From: Candidatus Multivoradales bacterium
Lineage (GTDB): Bacteria; Acidobacteriota; Thermoanaerobaculia; Multivoradales; Multivoraceae
Length of the DNA stretch: 64,000 nt
Assembly: GCA_965223325.1 (NCBI GenBank)
Contig: CBDCWI010000001.1
Coordinates: 1,856,001 to 1,920,000 of the forward strand
Direction of reading: 5' to 3'
Made by a program: the position numbers and the translations under genes. Positions 33,259-60,159 of the stretch are shown piece by piece. How positions within the stretch are numbered: position 1 is the stretch's first letter; each line of letters starts with the position of its first letter. The notes beneath the pieces are model-generated. The model made no database searches. It was not told the DNA's origin and saw nothing but the letters and a program-made list of their open reading frames with translations.

Positions 33259-33265
33259 GACGGCG

Positions 33266-33301
33266 CTCTCACAGAAGCTCTCACAGGAGCCCTCACAGGA
33301 G
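33266..33301. repeat. 3 x 12-bp tandem repeat duplicating the hutU stop region
   Basis: ctctcacagaag/ctctcacaggag/ccctcacaggag. Confidence 0.8.
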
Positions 33302-47442: not shown

Positions 47443-49179
47443 ATGCAGTCCCCTGACTTCGACAGCACCGACCAATCCGTGGCGGCACGCATTCGCGCCA
47501 CTCAGCGTTCCGATCGACTCACCATTGCGTTTGCAGCGCTGTTGCTCTTCGTGGCTGCAGCTTTGAGTCTCCTGGCGGCTTCGCCCGCCTCGGCTCAAGA
47601 GGGTGATCCCGCGGGTAGCTTCGCCGACACGCTCGATGTTCGGGTGGTCAATGTCGAGGCGGTGGTGACGGATAAGCGCGGCGATCGTGTCACCGGTCTT
47701 TCGCCCGACAGCTTCGAGCTCCTGGTCGACGGCGTTTCCACACCGATCGAGTTCTTCTCGGAGGTGCGTGGCGGTACGGTCCTGGCGGAGAACGGCGCCT
47801 CGCCGTGGGAGATCGCCCCGATCTCGAGCACCCAGGCGCGTGGTACCAGCTACCTGGTCTTCATCGACGACTACTTCTCCATCAAGGTCGATCGCGACAA
47901 CGTGCTGCGCAATCTCGGTGACCAGCTCGCCTTCCTCGGCCCCGAAGACCGTATGGCGATCGTCGCCTGGAATGGGCATGGGCTCGAGATGCTTACGAGC
48001 TGGAGCGCGAGTGAACGCGAACTGCAAAAGGCCATTCGAAGCGCCATGGATCGCCCCAGTCGCGGCCTCGAGCGCATCGCAGAGCGCAACACGGCGCTCT
48101 TCGGCTCGCGTCTCGCCAATCGCGGCTATGGCTATGGCTATGGCTACCGCTACGGCTATCGGCTCGCCCACGACGTGAGCCTCCAGTCACGTGCCTACAT
48201 CTCAGAGCTCAGCGTGCAGGTCGAATCTGCGGTCAACGCCAGTGCGGCGGCTCTGCGGAGCTTCGGGTTCCCGCCCGGGCGCAAGGTCATGATGTTGGTG
48301 TCGGGGGGCTGGCCCTTCACACCGGCCGACTTCGTCGCCGGGAACCGCTTCGCGTCGGTGACCAACTACGCCACCTTCGAGCGCGGTGAAGATCTCTACG
48401 CTCCCCTCGTCGACACCGCGAACCTGCTCGGCTACACGATCTACCCGGTCGACGCTCCGGGCATGCAAGCTCGAGCGACCAGTGATGTCTCGCGAGACTT
48501 CGTACCCGGCACCCGCACCCTCGACTACGAGCGCGAAGACGAGATGCACTACACCTTGCGCCGCCTGGCCTCTGAGACTGGTGGGCTTGCGCTTCTCAAC
48601 GGTCTCCGCAGTCATGCCCTCGAGAAGATCGCCGGTGACACGCGCTCCTTCTACTGGATCGGCTTCACCGCACCAAGGGCCGAGGACGGCGTTGTGCATG
48701 ACATCGAGCTCAACGTCCGAGAGCGCGGGCTCCGGGTTCGCACCCGCGAGAACTTCACCGACCTGACGCGCGACCAGGAGGTCGACACCGCCGTCGAGAG
48801 TGCGCTTTTGTTCGGTCAACCTCTCGGCTCCGAACTGACCCTCAACCTTGGTCGTGCTGTCAAGAGCGGGTTCGGCAAGATGCACGTACCGCTCACGCTC
48901 AGTATTCCTGCTGGCGACCTGACACTCCTGCCAACGGGTGAAGATGAGTACGCTACCGAGCTCGAGATTCGCATTGCCGCACGCGACGACCGCGGCGACA
49001 TGTCAGAGATTCCACTCGCGACGCTCCGTCTGCGCGGTGACGAGATCCCCGAACCGGGCGAGAACATCGAGTACTCCACTTCGCTCAAGATGCGCCGTGC
49101 GGACCATGACGTGATCGTCGCGGTCTACGATCCCAACTCGGGCACCCTTTGGTCCGAGGTCGCGCGGGTTTCCTTCTGA
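47443..49179 (+). CDS. Acidobacterial-type VWA-domain protein
   Basis: Signal peptide; VRVVNVEAVVTDKRG.RVTGL..DSFEL, PGRKVMMLVSGG, IYPVDAPG, LASETGG, FYWIGF. Confidence 0.9.
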   Translation: MQSPDFDSTDQSVAARIRATQRSDRLTIAFAALLLFVAAALSLLAASPASAQEGDPAGSFADTLDVRVVNVEAVVTDKRGDRVTGLSPDSFELLVDGVSTPIEFFSEVRGGTVLAENGASPWEIAPISSTQARGTSYLVFIDDYFSIKVDRDNVLRNLGDQLAFLGPEDRMAIVAWNGHGLEMLTSWSASERELQKAIRSAMDRPSRGLERIAERNTALFGSRLANRGYGYGYGYRYGYRLAHDVSLQSRAYISELSVQVESAVNASAAALRSFGFPPGRKVMMLVSGGWPFTPADFVAGNRFASVTNYATFERGEDLYAPLVDTANLLGYTIYPVDAPGMQARATSDVSRDFVPGTRTLDYEREDEMHYTLRRLASETGGLALLNGLRSHALEKIAGDTRSFYWIGFTAPRAEDGVVHDIELNVRERGLRVRTRENFTDLTRDQEVDTAVESALLFGQPLGSELTLNLGRAVKSGFGKMHVPLTLSIPAGDLTLLPTGEDEYATELEIRIAARDDRGDMSEIPLATLRLRGDEIPEPGENIEYSTSLKMRRADHDVIVAVYDPNSGTLWSEVARVSF

Positions 49180-49205
49180 GTCGACCAGACCGAATCCAAT
49201 ACGAG

Positions 49206-49234
49206 GCGGCCGAGCGGTAACGCTCGGCCGCTTT
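49206..49234 (+). terminator. Hairpin / terminator after the VWA gene
   Basis: GCGGCCGAGCG-GTAA-CGCTCGGCCGC-TTT. Confidence 0.7.
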
Positions 49235-49287
49235 GCCGTCTGCGAGCGGCGCTATGCTGCCTCCTCTCACCCTAAAGAGGAGACGAG

Positions 49288-50142
49288 ATGAGCGCCAAGA
49301 TCGGTGACGTGACCGTAACCCCGATTGTCGAGATCGATTGGCCGGTCAAGCCCCACTGGATTCTTCCCGACGCCACGCCCGAGAACACGAAGCCCTATCT
49401 CGACTGGCTCGCACCCCACTACGTGACCGACGACGGCCTCCTGCGCCTGGTCGTGCAAGCCCTCTTGGTGGAGTCGCGTGGGCAGAAGATCATCGTCGAT
49501 ACATGCGTCGGCAACGACAAGGACCGCGACAACCCGGCCTGGAACCAACGCGACGGGCCCTTCCTGTCGCTGATTGAAGACGCCGGCTTTCCGCGCGAAG
49601 AAATCGACCTCGTCGTCTGCACCCACCTGCATGTCGACCATGTGGGCTGGAACACCATGAAGAGGAACGACGAGTGGGTACCGACGTTCCCCAACGCGCG
49701 TTACCTATGGGCGGGCGAAGAGTTCGACTATTGGAGCAAGACGAGAGATGAGATAGGCAGCCAGGTGTTTGGCGACTCCGTCGCTCCGATCTTCGAAGCC
49801 GGTCTCGCGCGCTCGGTCGCCAGCGATCACCAGATCACCCCCGAGCTCCGCTTCCTGTCGACCCCAGGACACACCCCCGGCCACTGCGCCGTTGCGATCT
49901 CGTCGCGGGGCGAGGAAGCGATCATCACCGGCGACCTCATGCATCACCCGAGCCAGTGCGCCCACCCCGAGTGGGGCTGCACGTTCGACCTGGATCCGAA
50001 GCGTGCCCAGGCGACCCGCCGCGACTTCCTCGAGCGCACCGCCGACCGCGACATCGCCGTCATCGGGACGCATTGGGGCGGCGACACCGCCGTTGCGGTG
50101 CGGCGCGAGGGAAACCGTTGCCGCGTCGGGAAGCGAAGCTGA
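49288..50142 (+). CDS. MBL-fold metallo-hydrolase (lactonase-like)
   Basis: THLHVDHVGWN, PGHTPGH, GDLMH, GTH. Confidence 0.93.
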   Translation: MSAKIGDVTVTPIVEIDWPVKPHWILPDATPENTKPYLDWLAPHYVTDDGLLRLVVQALLVESRGQKIIVDTCVGNDKDRDNPAWNQRDGPFLSLIEDAGFPREEIDLVVCTHLHVDHVGWNTMKRNDEWVPTFPNARYLWAGEEFDYWSKTRDEIGSQVFGDSVAPIFEAGLARSVASDHQITPELRFLSTPGHTPGHCAVAISSRGEEAIITGDLMHHPSQCAHPEWGCTFDLDPKRAQATRRDFLERTADRDIAVIGTHWGGDTAVAVRREGNRCRVGKRS

Positions 50143-50171
50143 AGCACAACACACGACCCTCGAAGGAGCAC

Positions 50172-50200
50172 TTGGAACAATAGATACATTGATATAGAAT
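50172..50200 (+). promoter_or_regulatory. Sigma70-type promoter with an internal palindrome
   Basis: TTGGAA-N17-TAGAAT in an AT-rich patch; the spacer holds CAAT-N6-ATTG. Confidence 0.6.
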
Positions 50201-50239
50201 GAAGTAATTCTGGCCTTTCTGGCCTTTCAGGGTTTCTCT

Positions 50240-51541
50240 ATGCCCTTCGATTCAGTGACTTCCTTCCCGCAGATCGGCTCCCAGGCCGTGCCGAGCCGTG
50301 CCGACGAAACGGCCCTTTCCAAGCGCCCAGGACTCGCCGTCACCGCGGTCGCACTCGGCGCGCTGGCGGTGAGCGCGTTTCTGGGCGCCACCATCAACCA
50401 CCTGGCAGTGACCTCCTTCTTCCTGATTGCCCAGCTCACCGTCGTCTCCATTGTCATCTGGCAGGCCTGTGACCCCTTCGCCGAGGCGGCGCAATGGCTC
50501 GGTCACCGCTTGCAGATTCCCGGCTCGGTGCGTGGCGCCACCCTCGACGCCATCGCCAGTTCACTCCCCGAGCTCTTTGCCGGCGTCTTCTTCGTCGTCG
50601 TTGCCTTCACCACCCTTGGTGGCGACCGCCAGGCCCTGGCCACGACGATGGGCAACGGCTACGCCGCGGCGCTTGCCACCTGCGCTGGAAGCGCGGTCTA
50701 CAACATGATCTTGATCCCAGCGTTCTGCGCCCTGGTCATCTCGTCGACCCGCAAGGAACAGCCAACGATCGAGGTGTCGTCGTCGGTCCTCGCACGAGAC
50801 GGAAGCTGGTTTCTCGGTTGTGAAGTGCTGCTGGTGTGGTTTCTCTTCCAGCCGGCACTGCATTGGTGGATGGCGGTAGCTCTGATCGGCCTGTACACCG
50901 GCTACGTTCTGGTCCTCCATCGCGAGACAACGAAGTATCGCGCCGCTCTCGCGGGCGGCGATCAGGAGGTCGCGGGCGAAGAAGCCGACGACATCCCCGG
51001 CGAAGCCACTCTGCCCTACGGCCTGGGCGCCGTCCCGTTGACCCTTGCCAGTGCTTGGCTGGTCATTCTTGTGTGCACGGCGGTGGCCGCCGCGGCGTGC
51101 TACTGGCTGGTCGAGATCACTCACGCCACGTCGTACGAGTTCGGTATTCCGGCCTTCTTCGTCGCCGTCATTCTCGCCGCCGCAGCTTCGTCGGTGCCCG
51201 ACACCTTCCTTTCGATCGGCGCCGCCCGTCGAGGCGACGATGACGGCGCAGTCGCCAACGCCTTCGGCTCGAACATCTTCGACATCTGCATCTGTCTGAG
51301 CGTTCCGCTGCTGCTCGCAATCGCTCTCAACGGCGGCCAGCCGATCCAACTGACCGAGAACGGCGAACCCCTGGCGGGTCTCCTCGGCATCCGCCTGATG
51401 CTGATCACCCTCACCGTGATCACCCTGGCCGTCATGTGGCACAAGCGCAACCTGACGCGCAACAACGCGCTCCTCTTGTGCGCGCTCTACGTTTCATTCG
51501 TCGCCTACGCAGTGGCCGGGTCACTTGGACTCGCCGTCTGA
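50240..51541 (+). CDS. Ca2+/cation antiporter (CaCA, Na+/Ca2+ exchanger family)
   Basis: Alpha-1 repeat GATLDAIASSLPE...GSAVYN; alpha-2 repeat AAASSVPD...GSNIFDI; about 11-12 TM. Confidence 0.92.
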   Translation: MPFDSVTSFPQIGSQAVPSRADETALSKRPGLAVTAVALGALAVSAFLGATINHLAVTSFFLIAQLTVVSIVIWQACDPFAEAAQWLGHRLQIPGSVRGATLDAIASSLPELFAGVFFVVVAFTTLGGDRQALATTMGNGYAAALATCAGSAVYNMILIPAFCALVISSTRKEQPTIEVSSSVLARDGSWFLGCEVLLVWFLFQPALHWWMAVALIGLYTGYVLVLHRETTKYRAALAGGDQEVAGEEADDIPGEATLPYGLGAVPLTLASAWLVILVCTAVAAAACYWLVEITHATSYEFGIPAFFVAVILAAAASSVPDTFLSIGAARRGDDDGAVANAFGSNIFDICICLSVPLLLAIALNGGQPIQLTENGEPLAGLLGIRLMLITLTVITLAVMWHKRNLTRNNALLLCALYVSFVAYAVAGSLGLAV

Positions 51542-51559
51542 ACGCCCAGGAGCTCCCTC

Positions 51560-53509
51560 ATGCCACGCGCCACTCTCTACCAACGGTTCAGGTACCGCTT
51601 CGACAACTTCATGTCGCGGGGCGGGCGCTCGATCTTCATGTCGCTGACCCTGGTCTTCGTGGTGCTGTTGACCGCGATTTCGATCGTGCGCGGTGTGACC
51701 TACCACGTGTCGCCGCCCGAGCAGTCGCAGAACGAGCGCCACTTCTTGCGCAACGTCTATGTGACCTTCCTCGAGATGACCGACCCGGGCAACATGAACC
51801 AGGACATCGAGTCGTCGCCGGTGGTGAAGATCTTCGCCGTGGCATCGGGGCTGGCCGGTCTGGTGATGCTGTCGTCGCTGATTGCCTTTATCACCACCAG
51901 TCTCGATCAGAAGATGTCAGAGCTGCGCAAGGGCCACTCCAAAGTTCTCGAAGAAGATCACACCCTCATCCTCGGTTGGAACGAGCGCGTGCCTGAGATC
52001 CTGCGGGAATTGGTGATGGCCAACGAAAGCGAGCCCGACGCCTGCGCCGTGATTCTCGCCGACCGCGACAAGGAGTGGATGGACGACTACCTGAAGCTCA
52101 ACCTGCCCGACCGCGCCACCACCCGCATTGTCACGCGCAGCGGCTCGCCGTCGAGCCTGGTCAACCTGGAACTGGTTTCGGTGGACGAGAGCCGGTCGGT
52201 GATCGTGCTTGCCGACTGCAATCAGGGTGCGTCCGACACTGACAAGCACGCCAGCGACACCCACGTCGTCAAGACCGTCCTGGCGCTTACTACGGCACGG
52301 CGGCCCGACGTTCGGCTCAGCATCGTCGCCGAAGTCTTCGAGAAGAGTCGCCGTGAAATCGTCAAGCGCATCTCTCCGGAGGAAGTCTCGGTCATCGATA
52401 CCGACGAAATCCTCGCCAAGATGTTGGTTCAAACCTCGCGCAGCGTCGGGCTGTCAGTCGTCTACGGCGAGATTCTCTCCTTTGACGGGTGCGAGATGTA
52501 CTTCCACCACGCAGATTGGGGACTCGTGACCTTTGGCGAGATCGCCTTCCGTTGGCCGGACGGAATCCCCATGGGTCTTCGACATGCAGACGGTTCGCTG
52601 TCCCTCAACCCCGACCCTACCTGCGAGGTCTTGCCGGACGACGATGTGCTCATCCTCGCCGAAGACGACTCGACCGTCGAATACCTCGACGATCCCATCT
52701 TCGAGCCGCTGCGGCTTCCACTGAACGGCGCGCGGCGCACTCGCAGGGCCGAACGAACGCTGATTCTCGGCTGGACATCGAAAGTACGACAGGTGATCGA
52801 AGAGTTCGCCGACTACGTTCTCGAGGGCAGCCAGATCGACTTGATGCTTCGCCGTCCGGCGCCGGAGGTGCGCTTCGAAGTGCGCTCGCTGGCCAACCAG
52901 TTCGACCACCTCGAAGTGAACCTGCTCGATGGCGATCCGCTGACGACCGACGGGTTGCTCGCGGTGGAGCCGTTTCGCTACGAGAACATCATCATCCTCA
53001 GTCAGGGAGGCGACGACCAGAACCGCACCGATTCGGAAACGATCGTCATTCTGTTGCTGCTGCGCGCGATCTTCGAGGAACAGCCGAACAGGAACATCGA
53101 GACCCGGCTGATCACCGAGATTCTCGACTCCGAGAATCAGTTGCTGGTTCACGACACCGGGGTCAAGGACTTCATCATCTCGAACCGCCTGGTCAGCATG
53201 ATCCTGGCGCAGCTCAGCGAGGACGACGGAATCGGCGCTGTGTACGACGACCTGTTCGAAGAAGAGGGATCGGAGATCTACCTCAAGCCAGTGGAGTTGT
53301 ACTTCAGCGAACTGCCCACCGAGGTCACCTACGCCGACATGATTGCGATCGCCCAGAAGCGCAACGAAGTCTGTCTAGGGGTGAAGATCGGTGCACTCGA
53401 GACTGATCGAGACAACAACTTCGGGATCAAGCTGATCCCCGAGAAGCACCGCACCTATGACCTGTCCCTCGGAGACTGTCTGGTTGTCCTGGCCGAAGAC
53501 GAAACCTGA
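51560..53509 (+). CDS. CASTOR/POLLUX-related ion channel with tandem RCK domains
   Basis: RYRFDNFMSRG, two TMs around the pore-like TDPGNM, LRKGHSKVLEEDHTLILGW, TRSGSP, LSFDGCEMYF, EEGSEIYLKP. Confidence 0.9.
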   Translation: MPRATLYQRFRYRFDNFMSRGGRSIFMSLTLVFVVLLTAISIVRGVTYHVSPPEQSQNERHFLRNVYVTFLEMTDPGNMNQDIESSPVVKIFAVASGLAGLVMLSSLIAFITTSLDQKMSELRKGHSKVLEEDHTLILGWNERVPEILRELVMANESEPDACAVILADRDKEWMDDYLKLNLPDRATTRIVTRSGSPSSLVNLELVSVDESRSVIVLADCNQGASDTDKHASDTHVVKTVLALTTARRPDVRLSIVAEVFEKSRREIVKRISPEEVSVIDTDEILAKMLVQTSRSVGLSVVYGEILSFDGCEMYFHHADWGLVTFGEIAFRWPDGIPMGLRHADGSLSLNPDPTCEVLPDDDVLILAEDDSTVEYLDDPIFEPLRLPLNGARRTRRAERTLILGWTSKVRQVIEEFADYVLEGSQIDLMLRRPAPEVRFEVRSLANQFDHLEVNLLDGDPLTTDGLLAVEPFRYENIIILSQGGDDQNRTDSETIVILLLLRAIFEEQPNRNIETRLITEILDSENQLLVHDTGVKDFIISNRLVSMILAQLSEDDGIGAVYDDLFEEEGSEIYLKPVELYFSELPTEVTYADMIAIAQKRNEVCLGVKIGALETDRDNNFGIKLIPEKHRTYDLSLGDCLVVLAEDET

Positions 53510-53570
53510 GCACTTCAAGTGCTGTGCGGGCGCGTCCCCGCTTGACCGAACGGGCTATGCTCAGACGTGA

Positions 53571-54056
53571 GTGAGCAAGAAGAAGCAGCCCCTGTCGGTT
53601 GGTTGGCGCGAAGTCGTCGCAATCCCTGAGTGGGGCGTCGGTGGCCTGATCGCAAAGATCGACACCGGCGCTCGCACGAGCGCGATTCATGTTGAGTCGC
53701 TGGTCGAGCGAGCGGATGGCGGCCTCGAGTTCGTCGTGCCAACGCCGACCGGAAGGAAAACGGTTCTCGCCGAGCCCGCTCGGATCTCTCGGGTCAAACC
53801 CTCGACCGGAGAGATCCAGGAACGATGGGTCGTCGAAACAACCATCGAGATCGGCCCGATGACTCATACGGTCGAGATCAGCCTGTCATCGCGGGCGAAG
53901 ATGCTCACTCCGATGCTGATTGGGCGACGTGGCCTGAAGCGCGGCGTCGTCGTCAACCCTCATCGACGCTACCTTCACGGCAAGCCACCGAGGGCCAAGC
54001 CAGCTGGCTCCAAGAAGAAAAGGAAAAAGAAGAAAGCAACCGAGAGAAGCAAGTGA
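53571..54056 (+). CDS. RimK-associated retropepsin-like protease (RimB / 'ATP-dependent zinc protease' family)
   Basis: VGWREVV, AKIDTGARTSAIH, MLIGR; Lys-rich tail. Confidence 0.9.
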   Translation: MSKKKQPLSVGWREVVAIPEWGVGGLIAKIDTGARTSAIHVESLVERADGGLEFVVPTPTGRKTVLAEPARISRVKPSTGEIQERWVVETTIEIGPMTHTVEISLSSRAKMLTPMLIGRRGLKRGVVVNPHRRYLHGKPPRAKPAGSKKKRKKKKATERSK

Positions 54057-55240
54057 GAATCGGAATTCTGTCGCGTAACGCGCGCCTCTATTCGACGCGA
54101 CGCCTGGTCGAGGCCGGACGGGCCCGGGGCCATCGCATGCGCGTCCTCGACACCTTCGACTTTGCAGTTTCGATGGAGGAGGGCTTCCCAGACCTCTACT
54201 ACCGAGGTAAGCCACTGCCTGCGGTCGATGCGGTGATCCCGAGAATCGGTGCTTCGATCACCTACTTCGGCACCGCGGTCGTTCGCCAGTTCGAACAAAT
54301 GGAGGTTTTCTGCGCCAACAGCGCGCTCGGGATCGCCAACTCGCGCGACAAGCTGCGCTCCTTGCAGATGCTCTCGAAGTTCGACATCGGTATCCCGCCC
54401 ACCGAGTTCGTATCGCGGCGCAAGGACGTCCTGCCGGCGATTCGTCGACTCGGCGGCGCGCCGGTGATCATCAAGCTCCTCGAGGGAACGCAGGGCGTCG
54501 GCGTCATCCTGGCGGACTCGGAGAAGGTCGCTCAGGCAATCGTGGAGACGCTGCAAAGCACTCGCCAGGATGTCCTGCTTCAGAAGTTCATCGCCGAGAG
54601 TCGAGGCACAGACGTCCGGGCGTTCGTCGTCGGCGACCGCGTGGTGGCGGCGATGCGTCGTCGCGCGCAGGGCACAGAGTTCCGCAGCAACGTCCATCGC
54701 GGCGGCAAGGCCGAGGCAATCGACCTGCCAGAGAAGTACGAGGAAACCGCCATTCGAGCTGCCCAGGTCCTCGGGCTGCGCGTGGCCGGTGTGGACATGC
54801 TGCAGGCCGCCGACGGGCCGCAGGTCGCGGAGGTCAACTCCTCACCGGGCCTGGAGGGCATCGAGAAGGCAACTCGCATCGACGTTGCCGACGCCATCAT
54901 CCAGTACATGGAAGACCGCATCAAGTTCCCAGAACTCGACATTCGGCAGCGATTGACCGTCAGTCGGGGTTGGGGTGTCGCCGAGCTGCCGATTGGCAAG
55001 AACACCGCCTTTGCCGGCAAGAGGCTCGGCGAGTGCGGCTTCGAGGAGGCCGACATCCTGGTTCTCAGCCTCAACCGTGATGGCCGAGTCGTCAACAACC
55101 CTTCGGGGAGGCGCGAGCTCAAAGCCGGCGATCGCCTGCTGTGTTTCGGCAAGCTCGAAGAACTCAAGTCGCTCATCCCCGACCGTCGGAAACGCCGGCG
55201 ACGCAAACCGAAACGCCTGAGGAAGTCAGGCGGTGGCTGA
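54053..55240 (+). CDS. rimK: RimK family alpha-L-glutamate ligase fused to a C-terminal TrkA-C (RCK_C) domain
   Basis: GTGA overlap start; LYSTRRL, DAVIPRIGAS, RDKLRSLQ, EGTQG.GV, FRSNVHRGG, EVNSSPGLEGIE; then AGKRLGE...ILVLSLNRDG...NPSGRRELKAGDRLLCFG. Confidence 0.93.
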   Translation: MRIGILSRNARLYSTRRLVEAGRARGHRMRVLDTFDFAVSMEEGFPDLYYRGKPLPAVDAVIPRIGASITYFGTAVVRQFEQMEVFCANSALGIANSRDKLRSLQMLSKFDIGIPPTEFVSRRKDVLPAIRRLGGAPVIIKLLEGTQGVGVILADSEKVAQAIVETLQSTRQDVLLQKFIAESRGTDVRAFVVGDRVVAAMRRRAQGTEFRSNVHRGGKAEAIDLPEKYEETAIRAAQVLGLRVAGVDMLQAADGPQVAEVNSSPGLEGIEKATRIDVADAIIQYMEDRIKFPELDIRQRLTVSRGWGVAELPIGKNTAFAGKRLGECGFEEADILVLSLNRDGRVVNNPSGRRELKAGDRLLCFGKLEELKSLIPDRRKRRRRKPKRLRKSGGG

Positions 55241-56312
55241 GCGCCCCCTATGCCCGGGCCCTCTTTGCGTTCCGGCCGGTGAGCGCTCGGACCTCGCCCT
55301 GGTCGTTTCTGAGCGCTTCAGCGGGTCGCCGGTCGAAATCCCGCTGCACGTCTGGCGCGCCGAGAAGGAAGGCCCGACGGTCCTCGTTTGCGCGGCGGTG
55401 CACGGCGATGAGATCAACGGCACGGGCGTCGTCAAGAGCCTGATCACCGAACCACCCTTCGCCCTCGAAGCAGGGAACTTGATCCTGGTTCCGGTGATCA
55501 ACGTGCCGGGCTTCGAACGCCGCTCGCGATACCTGCCCGACCGGCGGGATCTCAATCGCTCCTTCCCGGGAACCGTCGGCGGCAGTTTGTCGTCGCGCTT
55601 CGCTCACCGCATCTTCAACGAGCTGGTCGCCGTTGCGGACTACTGCCTCGACTTTCACACCGCAGCCGTTCAGCGAACGAACTACCCCAACGTTCGCGGC
55701 CAGGTCGACAACCCCGAGGTGGCCAGGATTGCGCGCGCCTTCGGTACCGAGCTGATCGTCGCCGGCGCCGGCCCGCGGGGCTCACTGCGCCGGGTGGCAA
55801 CCGAGAACGGGTGCCCAGGAATCATCCTCGAGGCCGGCGAGGTCTGGAAGATGGAACCCTCGGTCGTCGAGACCGGTCGGCAGGGAGTGCGTAATGTTCT
55901 GATCGAGCTCGACATGGTGAAGGGTCGGGCGATCCGACCTCCCTACCAAGCGGTCGTCGACCGGACAACCTGGGTGCGCGCCGACCGTGGCGGCCTGCTC
56001 GAGTTCCATATCGCACCGGGGGAAGTCGTTGAAACCGAACAACCGTTGGCCACGACGACCGACCTCCTCGGTCGCCGGCTCAGCACGCTCTTGAGCCCGC
56101 AGGCCGGGGTCGTACTCGGTATGACGACGCTGCCAAGCGTCGTGCCGGGCAACCCTGTCTGTCACATCGCCGTACCGAGTGAAGGGATCGGCCCGATTCG
56201 AGCCGCCCTTCTGGAGAGCCAGGACGGAAGCCGCGGCACCGACGAAGATCTGCGCGACAAAGTGCGCGACGACCTCGCCACGAGTGTCACCATTTCGGAG
56301 CCGGAGCCTTAA
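55233..56312 (+). CDS. Succinylglutamate desuccinylase / aspartoacylase (M14-like) family
   Basis: AAVHGDEING, RDLNRSFPG, DFHT, EAGE; biotinyl-like C-terminal domain. Confidence 0.92.
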   Translation: MAERPLCPGPLCVPAGERSDLALVVSERFSGSPVEIPLHVWRAEKEGPTVLVCAAVHGDEINGTGVVKSLITEPPFALEAGNLILVPVINVPGFERRSRYLPDRRDLNRSFPGTVGGSLSSRFAHRIFNELVAVADYCLDFHTAAVQRTNYPNVRGQVDNPEVARIARAFGTELIVAGAGPRGSLRRVATENGCPGIILEAGEVWKMEPSVVETGRQGVRNVLIELDMVKGRAIRPPYQAVVDRTTWVRADRGGLLEFHIAPGEVVETEQPLATTTDLLGRRLSTLLSPQAGVVLGMTTLPSVVPGNPVCHIAVPSEGIGPIRAALLESQDGSRGTDEDLRDKVRDDLATSVTISEPEP

Positions 56313-56316
56313 GGCT

Positions 56317-57054
56317 TTGTCGAAGCCGCTTCCCAACGTTCTCGTCCACATCCTCGTCCTGGCACTACTTGCGCTGGCACTGTTCGCGCAGGCACCTGCT
56401 GACGCAGAGCTGCAAGAAGTAAGCAGGCCGACCACCACAACGCCGCTGACCTCGGTCTTCGCCGTCATGACGCACAAGGCGGGCTTCGCGTCATCACGCG
56501 CCCACAACCACATCATCGTCGCCTCCGACCTCAGCCTGGCGCTCGACTTCGATGCAGCGTACCCCTTAGAGACTTCGATCCGTATGAAGGGGCGGGTCGA
56601 GAACCTTCTAGTCGACGAGCCGAAGATCCAGCAACAGCTCGGAAGACGCATGGTCGAGCTCGGCGTGTTCTCCGAGGTTCCCACCGTGATTGACCGTAAG
56701 AGCCGCAAGAAGATCGCTCAATCGATGTTGGGTCCCAAACAGCTCGAGGCAGAACTGTTCCCCCATCTCGAAGCTCACCTCCGATCGCTTGAGCCTGCCG
56801 AGAAGGCAATCGCTCACGGTGGCGTTCGCTTCGGCTACCACGCAACCGTCGCACTCGAGGTCCACGGCAGAACCCGAGAGAGCATCTTCGACGCACGCCT
56901 CGAAAGACACGGCGAACGGGTCGTGCTCGAGGCCATCGGTACGTTCGAGTTCACCGACTTCGCCGTTGAACCGTTCTCCGCGTTCTTCGGCGCGGTCAAG
57001 AACGAGAACACCTTCCACGCCTACGCCCGCCTCGAAGTCGCAGCGCCGCCCTGA
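56317..57054 (+). CDS. YceI-like secreted protein
   Basis: Signal peptide; K.G..S..AHNH, MLGPKQLEAELFP, LEVHG, TDFAVEPFSAFFGAVK; the TTG start is uncertain. Confidence 0.75.
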   Translation: MSKPLPNVLVHILVLALLALALFAQAPADAELQEVSRPTTTTPLTSVFAVMTHKAGFASSRAHNHIIVASDLSLALDFDAAYPLETSIRMKGRVENLLVDEPKIQQQLGRRMVELGVFSEVPTVIDRKSRKKIAQSMLGPKQLEAELFPHLEAHLRSLEPAEKAIAHGGVRFGYHATVALEVHGRTRESIFDARLERHGERVVLEAIGTFEFTDFAVEPFSAFFGAVKNENTFHAYARLEVAAPP

Positions 57055-57078
57055 TGCCAGGAGAGGTCGGTCGTCGGG

Positions 57079-57621
57079 TCAGGTCCTACGCAGCCAGCGG
57101 ATCGTCCCGGCGATCGCCACGATGAGGCCGAGTGGCTCTAGCAACCAGGTTGCCTCATAGTCAGCGACCACCAGCCTCGTCGTGCGGACATCGAAAGAGG
57201 CAGCGCGCATCAAGACGAAGACCAGAACGAGCATCATGCCGACGGTCGCCGGCAGGGTCTCCTTGAGATGGTTGCGCCCGGCCCACAGCACCCAGAGCGC
57301 GAAGCCGAGAGTCGCAACCACCACCATGGCAAGAAACGCCACCTGGATCACCGCCCGTTCCTGGTACCAGCCCTGGGCCTGCGACATCTCTCGGCCGAGG
57401 CGAGTGAGGGCGAGCTGCAAATCGAGCTGCTTGTTGAGACCCAGGAGCACCGTGACCACCGCAAAGGACGCCCAGACGGGCGCCGGCGAAACACCACTCT
57501 GGGAACGCGCGCGGAGAAAGGCTGTTCCGAAAGCCGAGGCGGCAACGAGATAGGCGACGGTCACCATCCACGGGACCAGCCCAGGATCACCGGAATGCTC
57601 GAGATATCGGAGTTGGTTCAA
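57079..57621 (-). CDS. Hypothetical 5-TM membrane protein
   Basis: LGLNKQLDLQ..LT..GR...GWY..R..Q, FV.MRAASF, LE..G. Confidence 0.75.
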   Translation of the reverse strand: MNQLRYLEHSGDPGLVPWMVTVAYLVAASAFGTAFLRARSQSGVSPAPVWASFAVVTVLLGLNKQLDLQLALTRLGREMSQAQGWYQERAVIQVAFLAMVVVATLGFALWVLWAGRNHLKETLPATVGMMLVLVFVLMRAASFDVRTTRLVVADYEATWLLEPLGLIVAIAGTIRWLRRT

Positions 57622-57922
57622 TGGTCAACGCACGGGAAGCGATCGCGAAAGGACACAGATCCCCTCCGACCCTAGCAACGTCCGCCTGGCCAGTCAGAGG
57701 CGGAATTTCCGACCTGGTCACACCGTTACATGAACGATTGAGGCGCCGGCCCCAGAGTCACCGCGACCACAGAGCTGGAGCGACAGAGGGGCGCCATGAC
57801 GGCCTTTTCCACCCTCGAGACATGCCGAAACGGCGCTCCATCAGCTCGGGTGGTTCTTTTGCCATCCATCCCAAACGACTGGTTTTGTTGAACTATGAAC
57901 GATCGGGTAGCCGTCAGAAGAC

Positions 57923-57939
57923 CTGGCACGGTCATCGCT
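57923..57939 (+). promoter_or_regulatory. Sigma54-type promoter upstream of the 58104 gene
   Basis: CTGGCACG-GTCA-TCGCT (GG-N10-GC). Confidence 0.55.
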
Positions 57940-58103
57940 TTGAAGCTACTCAATCAGTTCCAGGACTCGAGGCCTCTCGGCCCAGCGGCGTTGGCCTCCC
58001 GCCCGAATGATCGTGAGGGTATCGCCAGCCTGTCTTTTGTGAGATCTGCCTTCCAATCACCCATCGCCATAGACGCACCAATCTCTGCACAAGCAAGGCC
58101 CCT

Positions 58104-59045
58104 ATGAGCATTCGACGCATCACCCAGACACTTCTCACCGTCGTGGCGCTGGCCGCGGTCGCCTGGTTCGCTCCCGAATCGAGCGACACCCTGGCGGCGC
58201 CGATGATGGGCTTTATCCCAGTTGTGGGTGATCTCAGTCGTCGGCTGCGGCGCGCCTACCGCGCCCTCGAAAAGCGAGACACCCGCGGTGCGGTCGGCGA
58301 GCTGCGCTATGCCGTGACCTGGCTGCGCGACCGGCGCCACAAGTCGGCCGACCCGGAGAGTGCGATGGCGGTTGCGACGGCGGCCGAGCGTCTCACTGAG
58401 CTCTGCACGCTGCTCGAGCGCGGTGGTCGCGTGCAACCCCAGGACCTCCTTGGTGCGATGGAAGCCGCCCACGAAGCAGAAGTCGACGAACTCTGGCCGG
58501 GCGTCCCCTCGTCGGTTTGGTTTCCCCTCTCCGATCGCCCGAACGAGCATTTTCGGCTCGCACATTCCCACCTGATCGGTGGCCAGACCAATCGCGCCGC
58601 CGCCGAACTGCGCAAAGCCGCGGCGCTCGTCAGGCTCGAGGCGTCACGCGCTCGCCCCAGCGAACGCGACGACCTTCTCGACTGCACTGAGCAGCTGCGC
58701 GCCATGGCGTCGAGCATCCGGCGCGCCGACCCAGCCGAGAGCAACCGCATGCGAGCCCTCTTCGGCAAGACCCATCGCGCCCTCGCCCGCCACTGGATCG
58801 GCGACATCAACCCCGCCTTGGTCGACGACTGCCTGGACGAGGCGCGTTGCTCGCTCCTGGCCGCCTGCCGTTCGATGCAGTGGGGGTTCCGCTGGTTGTC
58901 GCGCGAGGTTCCGCGTTCGGTCGACAGCGCCATCGGCGAAGCATCCGACTGGGCCCGAGAGCTCGAGCGCAAAGAAGCCGAGAGCGAAAAGAAGCCCGAC
59001 ATCGTGCGCGGTCTGCGCCGTGGTCTCCGCTCGCTAGCCGCTTGA
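58104..59045 (+). CDS. Secreted all-helical hypothetical protein with an internal duplication (YfdX-like)
   Basis: Signal peptide; two similar helical units (A..ELR.A...R ... E.L..). Confidence 0.65.
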   Translation: MSIRRITQTLLTVVALAAVAWFAPESSDTLAAPMMGFIPVVGDLSRRLRRAYRALEKRDTRGAVGELRYAVTWLRDRRHKSADPESAMAVATAAERLTELCTLLERGGRVQPQDLLGAMEAAHEAEVDELWPGVPSSVWFPLSDRPNEHFRLAHSHLIGGQTNRAAAELRKAAALVRLEASRARPSERDDLLDCTEQLRAMASSIRRADPAESNRMRALFGKTHRALARHWIGDINPALVDDCLDEARCSLLAACRSMQWGFRWLSREVPRSVDSAIGEASDWARELERKEAESEKKPDIVRGLRRGLRSLAA

Positions 59046-59328: not shown

Positions 59329-60159
59329 CTACAGCCGATCGCCGCAGAACTTGCAGTGTTTGGCGTCGGGGGCATGGCCTGACTTGAGGCAGCTCGGGCA
59401 GACCTCGGTTGTCACGCCCTGCTGCTTTGCCTGCGCGAGCTCGACCGAAAAGATGCCGGTCGGGATGATGATCATGCAGTAGCCGAGGACCATGGCGACC
59501 GCCGAGAGCGCCTGGCCGAACGGTGTTTCTGGGGCGATGTCGCCGTAGCCAACGGTGGTCACGGTCACGATGGCCCAGTAGATGCCTCGCGGAATGCTCG
59601 AGAAGCCCTCGTTGGTTTGACCTTCGACGACATACATCACCGAGCCCATGATCATCACCAGGGTCATGACGACAAACAGGAAGACCGCGATCTTGGCGCG
59701 GGTCGCAGCGACCGCCCGCAGAAGAGAGTTCATTTCGGTGACATAGCGGGCCGCCTTGAAGATCCTGAAAATGCGCAACAGGCGTAGGCCTCGGATGACG
59801 ACCAGGGCGTGCGAGCCGGTGAAGATCAAGCTGAGATAGCTGGGAAGGATCGCCAGAAGATCGATGATTCCGAAGAAGCTCCGGGCGTAGACCGCCGGGC
59901 GCTTCACGGCCAGGAGACGTAGAACGTACTCAATCGTAAACAGGACCGTGAAGATCCACTCTGCAACCCGCAACAACAAACCATGCTGCGCCTTGATCGA
60001 CTCGACGCTCTCCAGTACTACCGCCAGAATGGAAAGCACGATCAACACGAGAAGGGCAACGTCGAAGAACTTGCCCGCCGGTGTCTCGGCCTCGAAGATC
60101 ACCTCGTAGAGTTCGAGTTTCCAGTCTCGGGTGGCGGTGTGTGGTGCGGGATGATCCAT
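59329..60159 (-). CDS. Voltage-gated-type potassium channel (6TM ion transporter)
   Basis: S4 IRGLRLLRIFRIFK, filter TVTTVGYGD, C-terminal CPSC...CKFCG. Confidence 0.95.
   Translation of the reverse strand: MDHPAPHTATRDWKLELYEVIFEAETPAGKFFDVALLVLIVLSILAVVLESVESIKAQHGLLLRVAEWIFTVLFTIEYVLRLLAVKRPAVYARSFFGIIDLLAILPSYLSLIFTGSHALVVIRGLRLLRIFRIFKAARYVTEMNSLLRAVAATRAKIAVFLFVVMTLVMIMGSVMYVVEGQTNEGFSSIPRGIYWAIVTVTTVGYGDIAPETPFGQALSAVAMVLGYCMIIIPTGIFSVELAQAKQQGVTTEVCPSCLKSGHAPDAKHCKFCGDRL

What the first reader, a model, noticed from the sequence alone, without database searches (positions are those of the whole stretch)
50172..57054. Candidate new system: Ca2+/cation exchanger + CASTOR/POLLUX-like channel + poly-glutamate write/erase enzymes
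Seen: six co-oriented genes after one AT-rich sigma70-like promoter: CaCA antiporter, (18 nt) CASTOR/POLLUX-like RCK channel, (61 nt, no clear terminator) RimB-like protease, RimK-RCK_C and aspartoacylase-like hydrolase (these three overlap), (4 nt) YceI. Known: plant CASTOR/POLLUX/DMI1 are Ca2+-regulated channels needed for nuclear Ca2+ spiking; RimK makes poly-alpha-glutamate; Pseudomonas RimB cleaves it; M14-like enzymes remove acidic residues. The RimB-RimK-ASPA triad itself is widespread. Inference: channel plus exchanger form an influx/efflux pair, and a reversible polyanion acts as cation buffer, osmolyte store or channel modification, giving a bacterial ion-homeostasis or Ca-signalling module.
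Basis: partly seen in the sequence, partly recalled or inferred. Interest (0 to 1): 0.75.

Follow-up and report, generated by a model that had tools for sequence, protein, structure and literature searches.

The report
Ion-channel pair beside glutamate-tailing enzymes
Six neighbouring genes are really two separate, widely conserved gene sets, a calcium exchanger with a plant-CASTOR-like channel and a glutamate-chain adding and removing enzyme trio, that sit together only in this genome, although such enzyme trios often lie beside other ion channels elsewhere.

Summary
The six co-oriented genes exist as described. They are not a conserved six-gene system: none of 80 loci encoding relatives of the channel carries RimK, RimB-like, AstE/AspA-like or YceI-like genes within up to 10 kb.

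They split into two modules. (1) CaCA antiporter plus CASTOR/POLLUX-type channel. A CaCA gene lies near the channel in 11 of 80 loci: 9 orthologous pairs in Planctomycetota and 2 Gammaproteobacteria with a different CaCA subfamily. The cluster II Ca2+ ligands of plant CASTOR are conserved. (2) RimB-like protease, RimK fused to TrkA_C, and an AstE/AspA-type hydrolase. The fusion is common: 120 of 120 best relatives carry it.

The window looks acidobacterial, yet its channel nests among planctomycete channels, so the pair probably arrived by transfer.

In plasmid and chromid records, 9 of 10 RimK loci with an AstE/AspA neighbour have MscS, MgtE, CorA/ZntB or cation:proton antiporter genes within 3 kb, against 0 of 11 RimK loci without it.

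Verdict: partly supported, moderately interesting.

The parts
50172..50200 (+). sigma70-like promoter candidate (TTGGAA-17-TAGAAT) in the AT-rich gap before the CaCA gene
   Evidence: the only promoter-like site in 49000-58500, with 1.1 expected by chance. Sequence read. Function not shown.
50240..51541 (+). CaCA-family cation/Ca2+ antiporter, 433 aa
   Evidence: PF01699, two stretches, E 4.7e-36. TIGR00367 at 114 bits, below the 179.65 cutoff; acidic motifs SSLPE and SSVPD in the two repeats. Orthologues (51-59% identity) lie next to the channel in 9 of 80 loci.
51560..53509 (+). CASTOR/POLLUX-type channel, 649 aa: two TM helices with pore motif TDPGN, followed by an RCK gating-ring region
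   Evidence: PF06241 and PF22614. E 6.5e-58 to the L. japonicus CASTOR gating ring (6o6j) and 5.3e-55 to DMI1 (7vm8). N-terminal TM1, pore and TM2 read directly. CASTOR ligands E493, S345, D553 and D554 correspond to E312, S157, D369 and D370. E312, D369 and D370 are invariant and S157 is nearly invariant (90% or more) in 24 bacterial homologues.
53510..53570 (.). 61-nt spacer between the two modules
   Evidence: no terminator-like or promoter-like site, no Rfam match, fold z = 0.26.
53571..54056 (+). RimB-like retropepsin-type aspartic peptidase, 161 aa, cytoplasmic, with a lysine-rich tail
   Evidence: PF05618 E 1.3e-20. NF052261 RimB at 75.8 bits, below the 200 cutoff. DTG motif (KIDTGART), no signal peptide; matches PDB entries 9g58 and 9g59 (deposited as putative ATP-dependent zinc protease domain proteins), E 2.4e-8.
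54053..55240 (+). RimK-family alpha-L-glutamate ligase fused to a C-terminal TrkA_C (RCK_C) domain and an arginine-rich tail, 395 aa
   Evidence: PF18030, PF08443 and PF02080 (35.1 bits, cutoff 27). TIGR00768 passes; the NF007764 equivalog scores 314, below 331. E 1.5e-100 to Pseudomonas RimK (7qyr); 120 of 120 best relatives carry PF02080; tail sequence.
55233..56312 (+). AstE/AspA-family zinc hydrolase (M14-like), 359 aa, candidate remover of terminal glutamates
   Evidence: PF24827 E 2.2e-36; aligns to 3cdx and DoeB 6twl, with the HGDE and FHT motifs in place. Adjacent to rimK in 10 of 21 PLSDB RimK loci examined.
56317..57054 (+). secreted YceI-like protein, 245 aa; link to the other genes uncertain
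   Evidence: PF04264 at 21.7 bits, below the 23.7 cutoff; atlas score 0.94; signal-peptide-like N-terminus. Absent from all 80 channel loci. No YceI-named gene appears in the PLSDB RimK loci inspected; this was not searched by sequence.
59329..60159 (-). context only: voltage-gated-type cation channel (Ion_trans), 276 aa, 2.3 kb beyond the cluster
   Evidence: PF00520 E 8.5e-35 and PF07885. NF040645 at 55 bits, below cutoff.

Best explanation
The locus is a composite of two independently conserved modules placed side by side. They may be read from one promoter.

Module 1 is a CaCA antiporter plus a two-TM, RCK-gated channel of the CASTOR/POLLUX type.
- Inferred mechanism: divalent-cation (probably Ca2+) binding at the conserved cluster II sites of the gating ring controls opening. 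Cations (Ca2+ if it behaves like CASTOR; K+ cannot be excluded) flow down their gradient. The antiporter restores the resting level.

Module 2 is a glutamate write/erase set.
- The RimB-like aspartic peptidase cuts such chains.
- The AstE/AspA-type zinc hydrolase is inferred to trim terminal residues.
- The TrkA_C domain fused to RimK is inferred to make ligation respond to an ion or nucleotide ligand.

The two modules are not parts of one machine. Their adjacency here most likely reflects a shared theme, the response to ionic or osmotic state. The same theme places RimK+AstE/AspA sets next to MscS, MgtE, CorA/ZntB and cation:proton antiporter genes in other bacteria.

Shown: gene content, domain identities, conserved residues, and the synteny counts. 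Inferred: ion selectivity, the substrates of module 2, the TrkA_C ligand, co-transcription, and any physiological coupling.
For: Separability:
- 0 of 80 channel loci carry RimK, RimB-like, AstE/AspA-like or YceI-like genes. This holds for tblastn at E 1e-4, for an HMM of 120 RimK-TrkA_C sequences, and for phmmer on six-frame ORFs.
- 63 of the 80 loci have at least 3 kb of sequence downstream of the channel.
- Apart from CaCA, no gene family recurs next to the channel.

Module 1 is real:
- A CaCA gene lies near the channel in 11 of 80 loci. In 9 it is directly upstream on the same strand.
- 9 are orthologous pairs, all among the 34 Planctomycetota loci.
- 2 Gammaproteobacteria (L019, L023) have a distantly related 324-326 aa Na_Ca_ex protein 29 and 40 nt upstream.
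- The window's channel sits in a 14-row clade (SH-like support 96) in which 7 rows are CaCA-adjacent.

Ca2+ sites (PMC6697748, passages read):
- CASTOR E493, essential for activity, corresponds to E312.
- S345 corresponds to S157, and D553/D554 to D369/D370.
- E312, D369 and D370 are invariant and S157 is nearly invariant (90% or more) in 24 homologues.

Separate histories:
- The SecA2-like gene's NCBI-named relatives are 9 Thermoanaerobaculia and 1 Acidobacteriota, out of 10.
- An acidobact_VWFA protein lies just upstream.
- In contrast, all 13 other rows of the channel's clade are Planctomycetota.

Module 2:
- Strong matches to solved RimK.
- DTG motif in the RimB-like protein.
- Zinc-site motifs in the hydrolase.
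- The same gene set is seen in Vibrio, Salinivibrio, Photobacterium, Phaeobacter and Acaryochloris.

Shared theme:
- 9 of 10 RimK+AstE/AspA loci have a cation channel or transporter within 3 kb, against 0 of 11 RimK loci without the hydrolase. Fisher p = 3e-5 by locus, 2.5e-4 by distinct arrangement (7 of 8 against 0 of 10), and 3.5e-3 by lineage.

Literature:
- RimB stimulates free poly-alpha-Glu synthesis, and the authors discuss the glutamate pool and osmolality (PMC11957791, passages).
- RimB paralogues are needed under hypoosmotic stress (PMC12239564, passages).
- rimK (K05844) is more frequent in brackish than in marine genomes (PMC10219603, passage).
Against: - The modules are only 61 nt apart, with no terminator-like or promoter-like site between them. 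In this genome they may therefore form one transcription unit, which is what a single system would look like.
- No close relative could be examined. The best channel relative anywhere is 63% identical, so conservation of the six-gene order at short evolutionary range is untested.
- The RimK-side survey rests on 21 plasmid or chromid loci, taken from 45 records.
- The category 'cation channel or transporter within 3 kb' was chosen after seeing the data.
- Five of the nine positive loci are Vibrionaceae.
- PLSDB gene tables are incomplete, which could hide transporters in the controls.
- None of the PLSDB RimK proteins carries TrkA_C, so they are not the window's subfamily.
- The Ca(I) site of CASTOR is not conserved: D442 corresponds to E261 in a variable column, and D444 to S263.
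- The taxonomic assignment rests on one marker gene plus two typical families.
Confidence: 0.6

Rival explanations
1. One integrated six-gene system. The channel and exchanger set cytoplasmic Ca2+ or other cation levels. The RimK/RimB/AstE-AspA enzymes make and remove a polyanion that directly buffers those cations, stores osmolyte, or modifies the channel. All are co-transcribed and mechanistically dependent on each other.
For: - Tight spacing: 18 nt, 61 nt, two overlaps and a 4-nt gap.
- A single promoter-like site upstream and none inside the cluster.
- No terminator-like structure in the 61-nt spacer.
- RimK carries an RCK_C-type domain, as ion channels and transporters do.
- RimK+AstE/AspA sets elsewhere are co-oriented and tightly packed with CorA, MscS and MgtE genes (L081; L105).
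Against: - 0 of 80 loci with a related channel carry any rim gene.
- CaCA plus channel occurs without rim genes in 11 loci.
- The rim set occurs without this channel in all 10 PLSDB RimK+AstE/AspA loci.
- The two halves show different taxonomic affinity.
- The TrkA_C domain of RimK shows no significant similarity to the channel (E 0.37).
Confidence: 0.1
2. Pure chance adjacency. The rim genes only tune the ribosome through bS6 glutamylation, as in Pseudomonas. The ion-transport genes next to them, here and in other genomes, have no functional relation to them.
For: - Glutamylation of bS6 (RpsF) is the characterised role of RimK (PMC10092738, PMC11957791 and PMC12239564, passages; PMC4741518 and PMC7343187, listings only).
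- The six-gene order is unique among the loci sampled.
- 1 of 10 RimK+AstE/AspA loci (Photobacterium DA100, L089) has no cation transporter nearby.
- The association test is post hoc and the sample is small.
Against: - 9 of 10 against 0 of 11 loci.
- At least four different transporter families are involved (MscS, MgtE, CorA/ZntB, cation:proton antiporter), in Vibrionaceae, a roseobacter and a cyanobacterium.
- The window adds a further lineage with yet other families.
- The TrkA_C fusion on RimK is present in 120 of 120 best relatives.
- Osmotic phenotypes are reported for the related Rlo system (PMC12239564).
Confidence: 0.25

Closest known systems
Plant CASTOR / POLLUX / DMI1 channels (PDB 6o6j, 6o7a, 6o7c, 7vm8)
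   Same: - Castor_Poll_mid and RCK domains.
- The soluble region aligns over about 480 residues, E 6.5e-58.
- The ligands of the Ca(II) and Ca(III) sites are conserved.
- The plant two-TM construct is a functional core (PMC6697748, passages) and matches the bacterial length.
- The pore motif TDPGN shares D-x-G-N with the plant filter, as I recall it (ADSGNHA / ADAGNHA; not seen in any call).
   Different: - Bacterial protein of 649 aa, with two instead of four TM helices.
- The Ca(I) ligands are not conserved.
- Selectivity and gating are untested.
- No paper on a bacterial member was found under the terms.
- Paired with a CaCA gene, which is not part of the plant story.
Pseudomonas RimABK system (RimK, RimB, RimA)
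   Same: - RimK ATP-grasp ligase, E 1.5e-100 to 7qyr.
- An adjacent cytoplasmic retropepsin-like RimB-type peptidase with a DTG motif.
- Gene overlap suggests translational coupling.
   Different: - No RimA (EAL) gene.
- RimK has an extra TrkA_C domain and a poly-arginine tail.
- A third enzyme of AstE/AspA type follows.
- The RimB-like protein is far below the RimB equivalog cutoff (75.8 against 200 bits).
- The bS6 substrate could not be examined.
P. aeruginosa RloABC (secreted retropepsin-like peptidases, ATP-grasp RloC)
   Same: - The peptidase family is the same: PF05618, with matches to NF052262-4.
- The Rlo proteins cleave poly-glutamate and matter under hypoosmotic stress (PMC12239564, passages).
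   Different: - The window's peptidase has no signal peptide.
- The ligase is a true RimK, not RloC.
- There is no RloB transglutaminase-like membrane protein.
rimK-AstE/AspA-(rimB)-CorA-MscS-MgtE clusters of Vibrionaceae (V. europaeus pVeu, Photobacterium sp. GJ3); to my knowledge unstudied
   Same: Glutamate ligase and hydrolase genes are co-oriented and tightly packed with cation channel and transporter genes. The overall logic is the same as in the window.
   Different: - Different transport families (Mg2+ transporters and mechanosensitive channels, not CaCA and CASTOR-like).
- RimK lacks TrkA_C.
- GGDEF genes are adjacent in three loci.
CaCA antiporters of the YrbG / NCX_Mj type
   Same: Two Na_Ca_ex repeats, each with an acidic S-x-P-E/D motif.
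   Different: - 433 aa, with an N-terminal extension of about 60 residues.
- Below the TIGR00367 and PRK10734 cutoffs.
- Ion specificity unknown.

Membership tests
CASTOR/POLLUX/DMI1 channel family | Castor_Poll_mid domain together with an RCK domain | tested here: met
   PF06241 at 72.3 bits (cutoff 26.7) and PF22614 at 35.9 bits (cutoff 24).
CASTOR/POLLUX/DMI1 channel family | Sequence similarity of the soluble region to the solved CASTOR and DMI1 gating rings | tested here: met
   E 6.5e-58 (6o6j) and 5.3e-55 (7vm8). Query residues 123-614 align in two stretches.
CASTOR/POLLUX/DMI1 channel family | Ca2+-binding residues of the gating ring | tested here: inconclusive
   Cluster II is conserved: E493 to E312, S345 to S157, D553/D554 to D369/D370, with E312, D369 and D370 invariant and S157 nearly invariant in A1. 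Ca(I) is not conserved: D442 to E261 in a variable column, D444 to S263.
CASTOR/POLLUX/DMI1 channel family | Ca2+-selective, Ca2+-activated conductance | not testable with these tools
   Needs electrophysiology or flux assays.
RimK (bS6 alpha-L-glutamate ligase) | Rimk_N plus RimK ATP-grasp domains; family model TIGR00768 | tested here: met
   TIGR00768 at 232.5 bits against a cutoff of 143.4.
RimK (bS6 alpha-L-glutamate ligase) | Equivalog model NF007764 (30S ribosomal protein S6--L-glutamate ligase) | tested here: not met
   314.1 bits, below the 331 cutoff. A narrow miss; the extra TrkA_C domain lies outside the model.
RimK (bS6 alpha-L-glutamate ligase) | Substrate bS6 ending in glutamates in the same genome | not testable with these tools
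   I found no rpsF gene among the window ORFs scanned.
RimB (retropepsin-like aspartic endopeptidase) | PF05618 fold family with a catalytic DTG motif, cytoplasmic, adjacent to rimK | tested here: met
   E 1.3e-20, KIDTGART motif, no signal peptide, 4-nt overlap with rimK.
RimB (retropepsin-like aspartic endopeptidase) | Equivalog model NF052261 | tested here: not met
   75.8 bits, below the 200 cutoff. Best called RimB-like.
AstE/AspA zinc hydrolases | Catalytic domain PF24827 with H-x-x-E ... H zinc motifs | tested here: met
   125.7 bits (cutoff 25). HGDE and FHT aligned to 3cdx and 6twl. Activity on glutamate chains not tested.
CaCA superfamily | Two Na_Ca_ex repeats | tested here: met
   PF01699, two stretches, 124.4 bits. 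The named subfamily models all fall below cutoff.
YceI family | PF04264 above the gathering score | tested here: inconclusive
   21.7 bits, below 23.7; feature score 0.94, with all 30 hits in the YceI set.
A conserved six-gene 'system' | Co-occurrence of the transport and rim genes in other genomes | tested here: not met
   0 of 80 channel loci. All 10 PLSDB RimK+AstE/AspA loci lack a CASTOR-like or CaCA gene by annotation and Pfam scan.
A conserved six-gene 'system' | One transcript across 53509-53571 | not testable with these tools
   No terminator or promoter pattern in the spacer. RNA data are needed.

The most novel reading that the evidence does not exclude
RimK with its AstE/AspA-type and RimB-type partners is an ion-responsive glutamate-chain rheostat, acting on free poly-alpha-glutamate and/or the bS6 tail. 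Bacteria from several phyla wire it genomically to whichever cation channels and transporters they use (MscS, MgtE, CorA, cation:proton antiporters). In this genome the TrkA_C-bearing version is coupled to a horizontally acquired, Ca2+-gated CASTOR-type channel and its CaCA partner. Together they form a bacterial Ca2+/cation-homeostasis or signalling unit. The TrkA_C domain could bind K+, a divalent cation, or a nucleotide messenger such as c-di-AMP. That RCK_C domains of K+ transporters bind c-di-AMP is recalled, not tested here.
Probability: 0.2. Interest if true: 0.8.

Novelty: new variant of a known kind. Interest (0 to 1): 0.5.

Why it matters
**Bacterial Ca2+ handling.** The channels that let Ca2+ into bacteria are largely unidentified. 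Here is a widespread bacterial family that keeps the essential Ca2+-site residues of plant CASTOR. It is repeatedly paired with Ca2+/cation antiporters from two different subfamilies. That makes it a concrete, easily expressed candidate for a Ca2+-gated cation channel, and a route to the origin of the plant symbiosis channels.

**RimK biology.** RimK is known from ribosome tail modification. In this work its glutamate ligase and hydrolase genes repeatedly neighbour Mg2+ transporters and mechanosensitive channels, and a large subfamily is fused to an RCK_C domain. Both point to ionic or osmotic control of glutamate polymerisation. The searches returned no paper describing this.

**If both leads fail,** the locus is an ordinary juxtaposition of two known gene sets.

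Tried and rejected
**Taxonomy.** I first took the window for a planctomycete because of the names on the channel hits. I rejected this after the SecA2-like gene, the acidobact_VWFA protein and the TonB-receptor types pointed to Acidobacteriota/Thermoanaerobaculia.

**Recent transfer.** GC and GC3 of the CaCA and channel genes are not unusual, so a recent transfer is not indicated.

**Other channel partners.** Clustering the neighbours of the channel in 80 loci gave no second recurrent partner.

**Sensitivity of the CaCA search.** tblastn alone missed the two distant CaCA neighbours. Profile and phmmer searches found them.

**Regulatory RNA.** No Rfam family was found in 49000-58500 at E up to 1.

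**Domain relatedness.** The TrkA_C part of RimK against the channel gave E 0.37, and against PDB E 0.39 or higher. Neither is significant.

**Haloarchaeal relatives.** Three haloarchaeal and one Bacteroidota relative of the hydrolase were inspected. One has a divergent 'RimK/LysX family' neighbour and one overlaps a copper ATPase gene. This was too thin to use.

**Shared contigs.** By eye, the contig lengths listed for the best 119 channel relatives and the best 119 RimK relatives share none but the window's own. Two RimK hits share a contig length with loci L018 and L056. Those loci were held whole and contain no RimK, so these are coincidences. This check carries little weight.

**Tree building.** The first tree run timed out. 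The FastTree run was used instead, with six truncated or interrupted rows left out: L016, L049, L068, L071, L076 and L078.

**Papers.**
- PMC3406897 was not held.
- PMC8644588 and PMC4431377 gave nothing on pore motifs or RimK neighbourhoods.
- PMC10831881 reports a RimK substitution in a Cs+-resistant E. coli, without causal proof.

**Not done.**
- No structure or complex prediction was run, because the report claims no binding.
The RimK-side survey in chromosomes therefore stayed unchecked.
- Supplementary figure S2 of PMC12239564 (distribution of RimB-RimK) was not opened.

Full report
**What is there.**
- Pfam and NCBIfam identify a CaCA antiporter (50240-51541), a channel with Castor_Poll_mid and RCK domains (51560-53509), and a PF05618 retropepsin-like peptidase (53571-54056).
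- They also identify a RimK ligase with an added TrkA_C domain (54053-55240), an AstE/AspA-type zinc hydrolase (55233-56312), and a weak YceI-like protein (56317-57054).
- The YceI call is below Pfam's cutoff but is supported as a lead by the protein atlas. The protein starts with a signal-peptide-like segment.
- Read from the sequence, the spacings are 18 nt, 61 nt, a 4-nt overlap, an 8-nt overlap and a 4-nt gap.
- A convergent membrane-protein ORF follows 24 nt after the last stop.
- The promoter-like site at 50172-50200 is the only one in 9.5 kb, but one is also what shuffled sequence gives.
- The 61-nt spacer has no terminator-like or promoter-like site, no Rfam match and no unusual fold.

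Co-transcription is possible and unproven.

**Is it one system? The view from the channel.**
- The channel family is large: 1834 proteins at E up to 0.001 among the 7997 candidates scored. The best are 54-63% identical to the window's protein.
246 stretches in species-representative genomes encode a relative, and the best 80 loci were kept.
- 69 of 80 have at least 1.5 kb upstream of the channel, 63 have at least 3 kb downstream, and 44 have at least 5 kb on both sides.
- tblastn with eleven window proteins found no RimK, RimB-like, AstE/AspA-like or YceI-like gene in any of the 80.
- An HMM of 120 RimK-TrkA_C sequences, and phmmer with the other three proteins on six-frame ORFs, also found none.
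- Clustering all neighbours showed no recurrent partner except CaCA.

The six-gene set is therefore not conserved at the distances that could be sampled. No closer relative than 63% identity exists in the collections searched, so short-range conservation remains untested.

**The channel and the exchanger are a real pair.**
- Orthologues of the window's CaCA (51-59% identity) lie near the channel in 9 of 80 loci. All 9 are among the 34 loci whose record titles name Planctomycetota.
- Seven are directly upstream on the same strand, one is directly downstream (L079), and one is 2.6 kb away on the other strand (L007).
- Profile searches added two Gammaproteobacteria (L019, L023). There a different, YrbG-like Na_Ca_ex protein of 324-326 aa ends 29 and 40 nt before the channel gene.
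- Two CaCA subfamilies in two phyla make chance or simple inheritance an unlikely full explanation.
- In a FastTree of 75 channel sequences (six truncated or interrupted rows left out), the window falls in a 14-row clade with SH-like support 96. Seven of those rows are CaCA-adjacent.

**What kind of channel.**
- The soluble part aligns to the crystal structures of the Lotus CASTOR and Medicago DMI1 gating rings (E 6.5e-58 and 5.3e-55).
- I mapped the ligands described by Kim et al. (PMC6697748, passages read) onto that alignment.
- E493 is the one acidic ligand of the Ca(II) site, and its mutation abolishes CASTOR activity. It corresponds to E312.
- S345 and D553/D554 of Ca(III) correspond to S157 and D369/D370.
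- E312, D369 and D370 are invariant and S157 is nearly invariant (90% or more) in the 24-sequence alignment.
- The Ca(I) ligands are not conserved: D442 corresponds to E261 in a variable column, and D444 to S263.
- The N-terminus has two hydrophobic helices flanking a pore segment with TDPGN. DPG and the following M are invariant.
- I recall the plant filters as ADSGNHA and ADAGNHA, but could not check this: PMC3406897 is not held.
- Selectivity is open. CASTOR was reported as Ca2+-selective (PMC6697748), while plastid relatives were reported with K+ conductivity (PMC8644588, abstract in the listing).
- No paper on a bacterial member turned up under the terms.

**The rim genes.**
- RimK matches solved Pseudomonas and E. 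coli RimK over residues 1-288 (E 1.5e-100 and 7e-82). It passes the family model and narrowly misses the bS6-ligase equivalog.
- Residues from about 309 form a TrkA_C domain (35.1 bits, cutoff 27), followed by an arginine-rich tail.
- The fusion is no oddity. All 120 best relatives (66-80% identical) carry PF02080. The seven NCBI-named ones are 3 Acidobacteriota and 4 Planctomycetota.
- The peptidase has the DTG motif, lacks a signal peptide and has a lysine-rich tail. It is RimB-like rather than a RimB equivalog and resembles PDB entries 9g58 and 9g59.
- The hydrolase keeps the zinc-site motifs of its family.
- Published work shows that RimK glutamylates bS6 and makes free poly-alpha-glutamate. 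It shows that RimB cleaves such chains and stimulates their free synthesis, with consequences for the glutamate pool. It also shows that the paralogous secreted Rlo peptidases are needed under hypoosmotic stress (PMC10092738, PMC11957791 and PMC12239564, passages; PMC4741518 and PMC7343187, listings only).
- No paper in the library holds both 'RimK' and 'succinylglutamate desuccinylase'.

**The view from RimK.**
- 45 records match RimK at E up to 1e-40, and I inspected 21 loci.
- The 24 not inspected were E. coli (11), Klebsiella (2), and further Thioclava (4), Pseudoalteromonas (4), Salinivibrio kushneri (2) and V. nigripulchritudo (1) records.
- Ten loci have an AstE/AspA-like gene next to rimK, and nine of these also have the RimB-like gene.

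| Locus | Organism | Cation channel or transporter within 3 kb |
|---|---|---|
| L081 | V. europaeus | MgtE, CorA and MscS directly after the set, co-oriented |
| L084 | V. nigripulchritudo | MscS-domain protein |
| L085, L102 | Salinivibrio (two species) | divergent MgtE, then MscS |
| L086 | Phaeobacter inhibens | ZntB |
| L096, L104 | Acaryochloris | cation:proton antiporter |
| L103 | Acaryochloris marina S15 | MscS |
| L105 | Photobacterium sp. GJ3 | CorA, MscS-like and MgtE, co-oriented |
| L089 | Photobacterium DA100 | none |

- Nine of the ten loci therefore have a cation channel or transporter within 3 kb.
- The eleven RimK loci without the hydrolase have none within 3 kb: L082, L083, L087, L088, L090-L095 and L097.
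- The nearest cases among these controls are a BenE symporter, a FUSC protein, and a Na+/H+ exchanger 5 kb away.
- Fisher's test gives 3e-5 by locus, 2.5e-4 for distinct arrangements (7 of 8 against 0 of 10), and 3.5e-3 for three lineages.

Caveats:
- The category was chosen after seeing the data.
- Five of the nine positive loci are Vibrionaceae.
- Only plasmids and chromids are covered.
- PLSDB gene tables are incomplete.
- These RimK proteins lack TrkA_C.

Even so, the window fits the pattern. It has a channel 61 nt from the rim genes, an antiporter next to the channel, and an Ion_trans channel 2.3 kb beyond the cluster. Independent hints point the same way: rimK is more frequent in brackish than in marine genomes (PMC10219603, passage), and GGDEF and ectoine-pathway genes lie near the Vibrio and Salinivibrio sets.

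**Different histories.**
- The NCBI-named relatives of the SecA2-like gene at 7888-10311 are 9 Thermoanaerobaculia and 1 Acidobacteriota, out of 10.
- An acidobact_VWFA protein and CarboxypepD_reg/Plug receptors lie just upstream of the cluster.
- RimK's best named relatives are acidobacterial.
- The channel, however, sits inside a clade whose 13 other members are all Planctomycetota. None of the 80 locus titles names Acidobacteriota.
- The simplest reading is that CaCA plus channel entered this lineage together by an old transfer. GC3 is not unusual. The pair then came to lie beside a resident rim operon.
- Moving as a pair is itself an argument that the two genes work together.

**Conclusion.**
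- The best-supported account is a composite of two modules that share a physiological theme. It is not one machine.
- I put 0.6 on that account, 0.25 on pure chance adjacency, and 0.1 on a truly integrated six-gene system.
- The parts worth following are the bacterial CASTOR-type channel with its CaCA partner, and the tie between RimK+AstE/AspA sets (and the RimK-TrkA_C fusion) and cation homeostasis. As far as my searches show, that tie has not been described.

Noticed in passing
window 53985-54056 and 55170-55240: Both the RimB-like peptidase and RimK end in strongly basic tails (a lysine run and an arginine run). Such tails could hold poly-glutamate, RNA or the ribosome. I did not check whether relatives share them.
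   Followed up: no
window 50240-53509 compared with 7888-10311 and 47443-49179: Taxonomic discordance. The SecA2-like and acidobact_VWFA genes point to Acidobacteriota/Thermoanaerobaculia, while the CaCA-channel pair groups with Planctomycetota. GC3 is not unusual, so any transfer is old.
   Followed up: partly
L019 1267-4211; L023 879-3855: Two Gammaproteobacteria carry a different, YrbG-like CaCA gene 29 and 40 nt upstream of their CASTOR-like channel gene. This is an independent instance of the pairing.
   Followed up: yes
L081 2251-8957; L105 5962-10948: V. europaeus and Photobacterium sp. GJ3 have co-oriented, tightly packed clusters of rimK, AstE/AspA-like, (RimB-like) CorA, MscS and MgtE genes, in different orders.
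   Followed up: partly
L081 2251-3972; L085 8638-10035; L102 8631-10043: GGDEF/diguanylate cyclase genes lie next to or two genes from the rim set in three Vibrionaceae loci. This recalls the c-di-GMP control of Pseudomonas RimK.
   Followed up: no
L084 1-2610; L081 488-1879: Ectoine synthesis genes (ectB, ectoine synthase, aspartate kinase) lie a few kb upstream of the rim set on the V. nigripulchritudo plasmid, and an aspartate kinase lies upstream on the V. europaeus plasmid. This fits an osmotic theme.
   Followed up: no
window 59329-60159 (-): A 276-aa voltage-gated-type cation channel (Ion_trans, Ion_trans_2) lies 2.3 kb beyond the cluster.
   Followed up: no
window 42025-42882 (+): A 285-aa ORF has a weak EF-hand_5 match (E 4.8e-4, below cutoff). 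It is possibly a Ca2+-binding protein 7 kb upstream of the CaCA gene, or the match may be chance.
   Followed up: no
window 30485-34951 (-): Histidine-utilisation genes lie together: urocanase, histidine ammonia-lyase and an amidohydrolase. The pathway ends in glutamate.
   Followed up: no
window 22828-26079 (-): A 1083-aa fusion of cytochrome P450 with a flavodoxin/FAD/NAD reductase (self-sufficient P450 type), next to a Rieske ring-hydroxylating oxygenase.
   Followed up: no
window 61419-62378 (+): An ORF with an IS200-like Y1 transposase domain lies 4.4 kb downstream of the cluster.
   Followed up: no
L098 3454-5978; L100 2788-6089: Haloarchaeal megaplasmids hold close relatives (35-39% identity) of the AstE/AspA-like hydrolase. 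One lies divergent from a 424-aa 'RimK/LysX family' gene, and one overlaps the end of a copper P-type ATPase gene.
   Followed up: partly
L088 7001-9300; L097 7001-9243; window 49288-50142: A metallo-beta-lactamase-fold gene lies next to rimK-rimB in two Vibrio chromids, and an MBL-fold (lactonase-like) gene precedes the CaCA gene in the window. This is probably coincidence.
   Followed up: no
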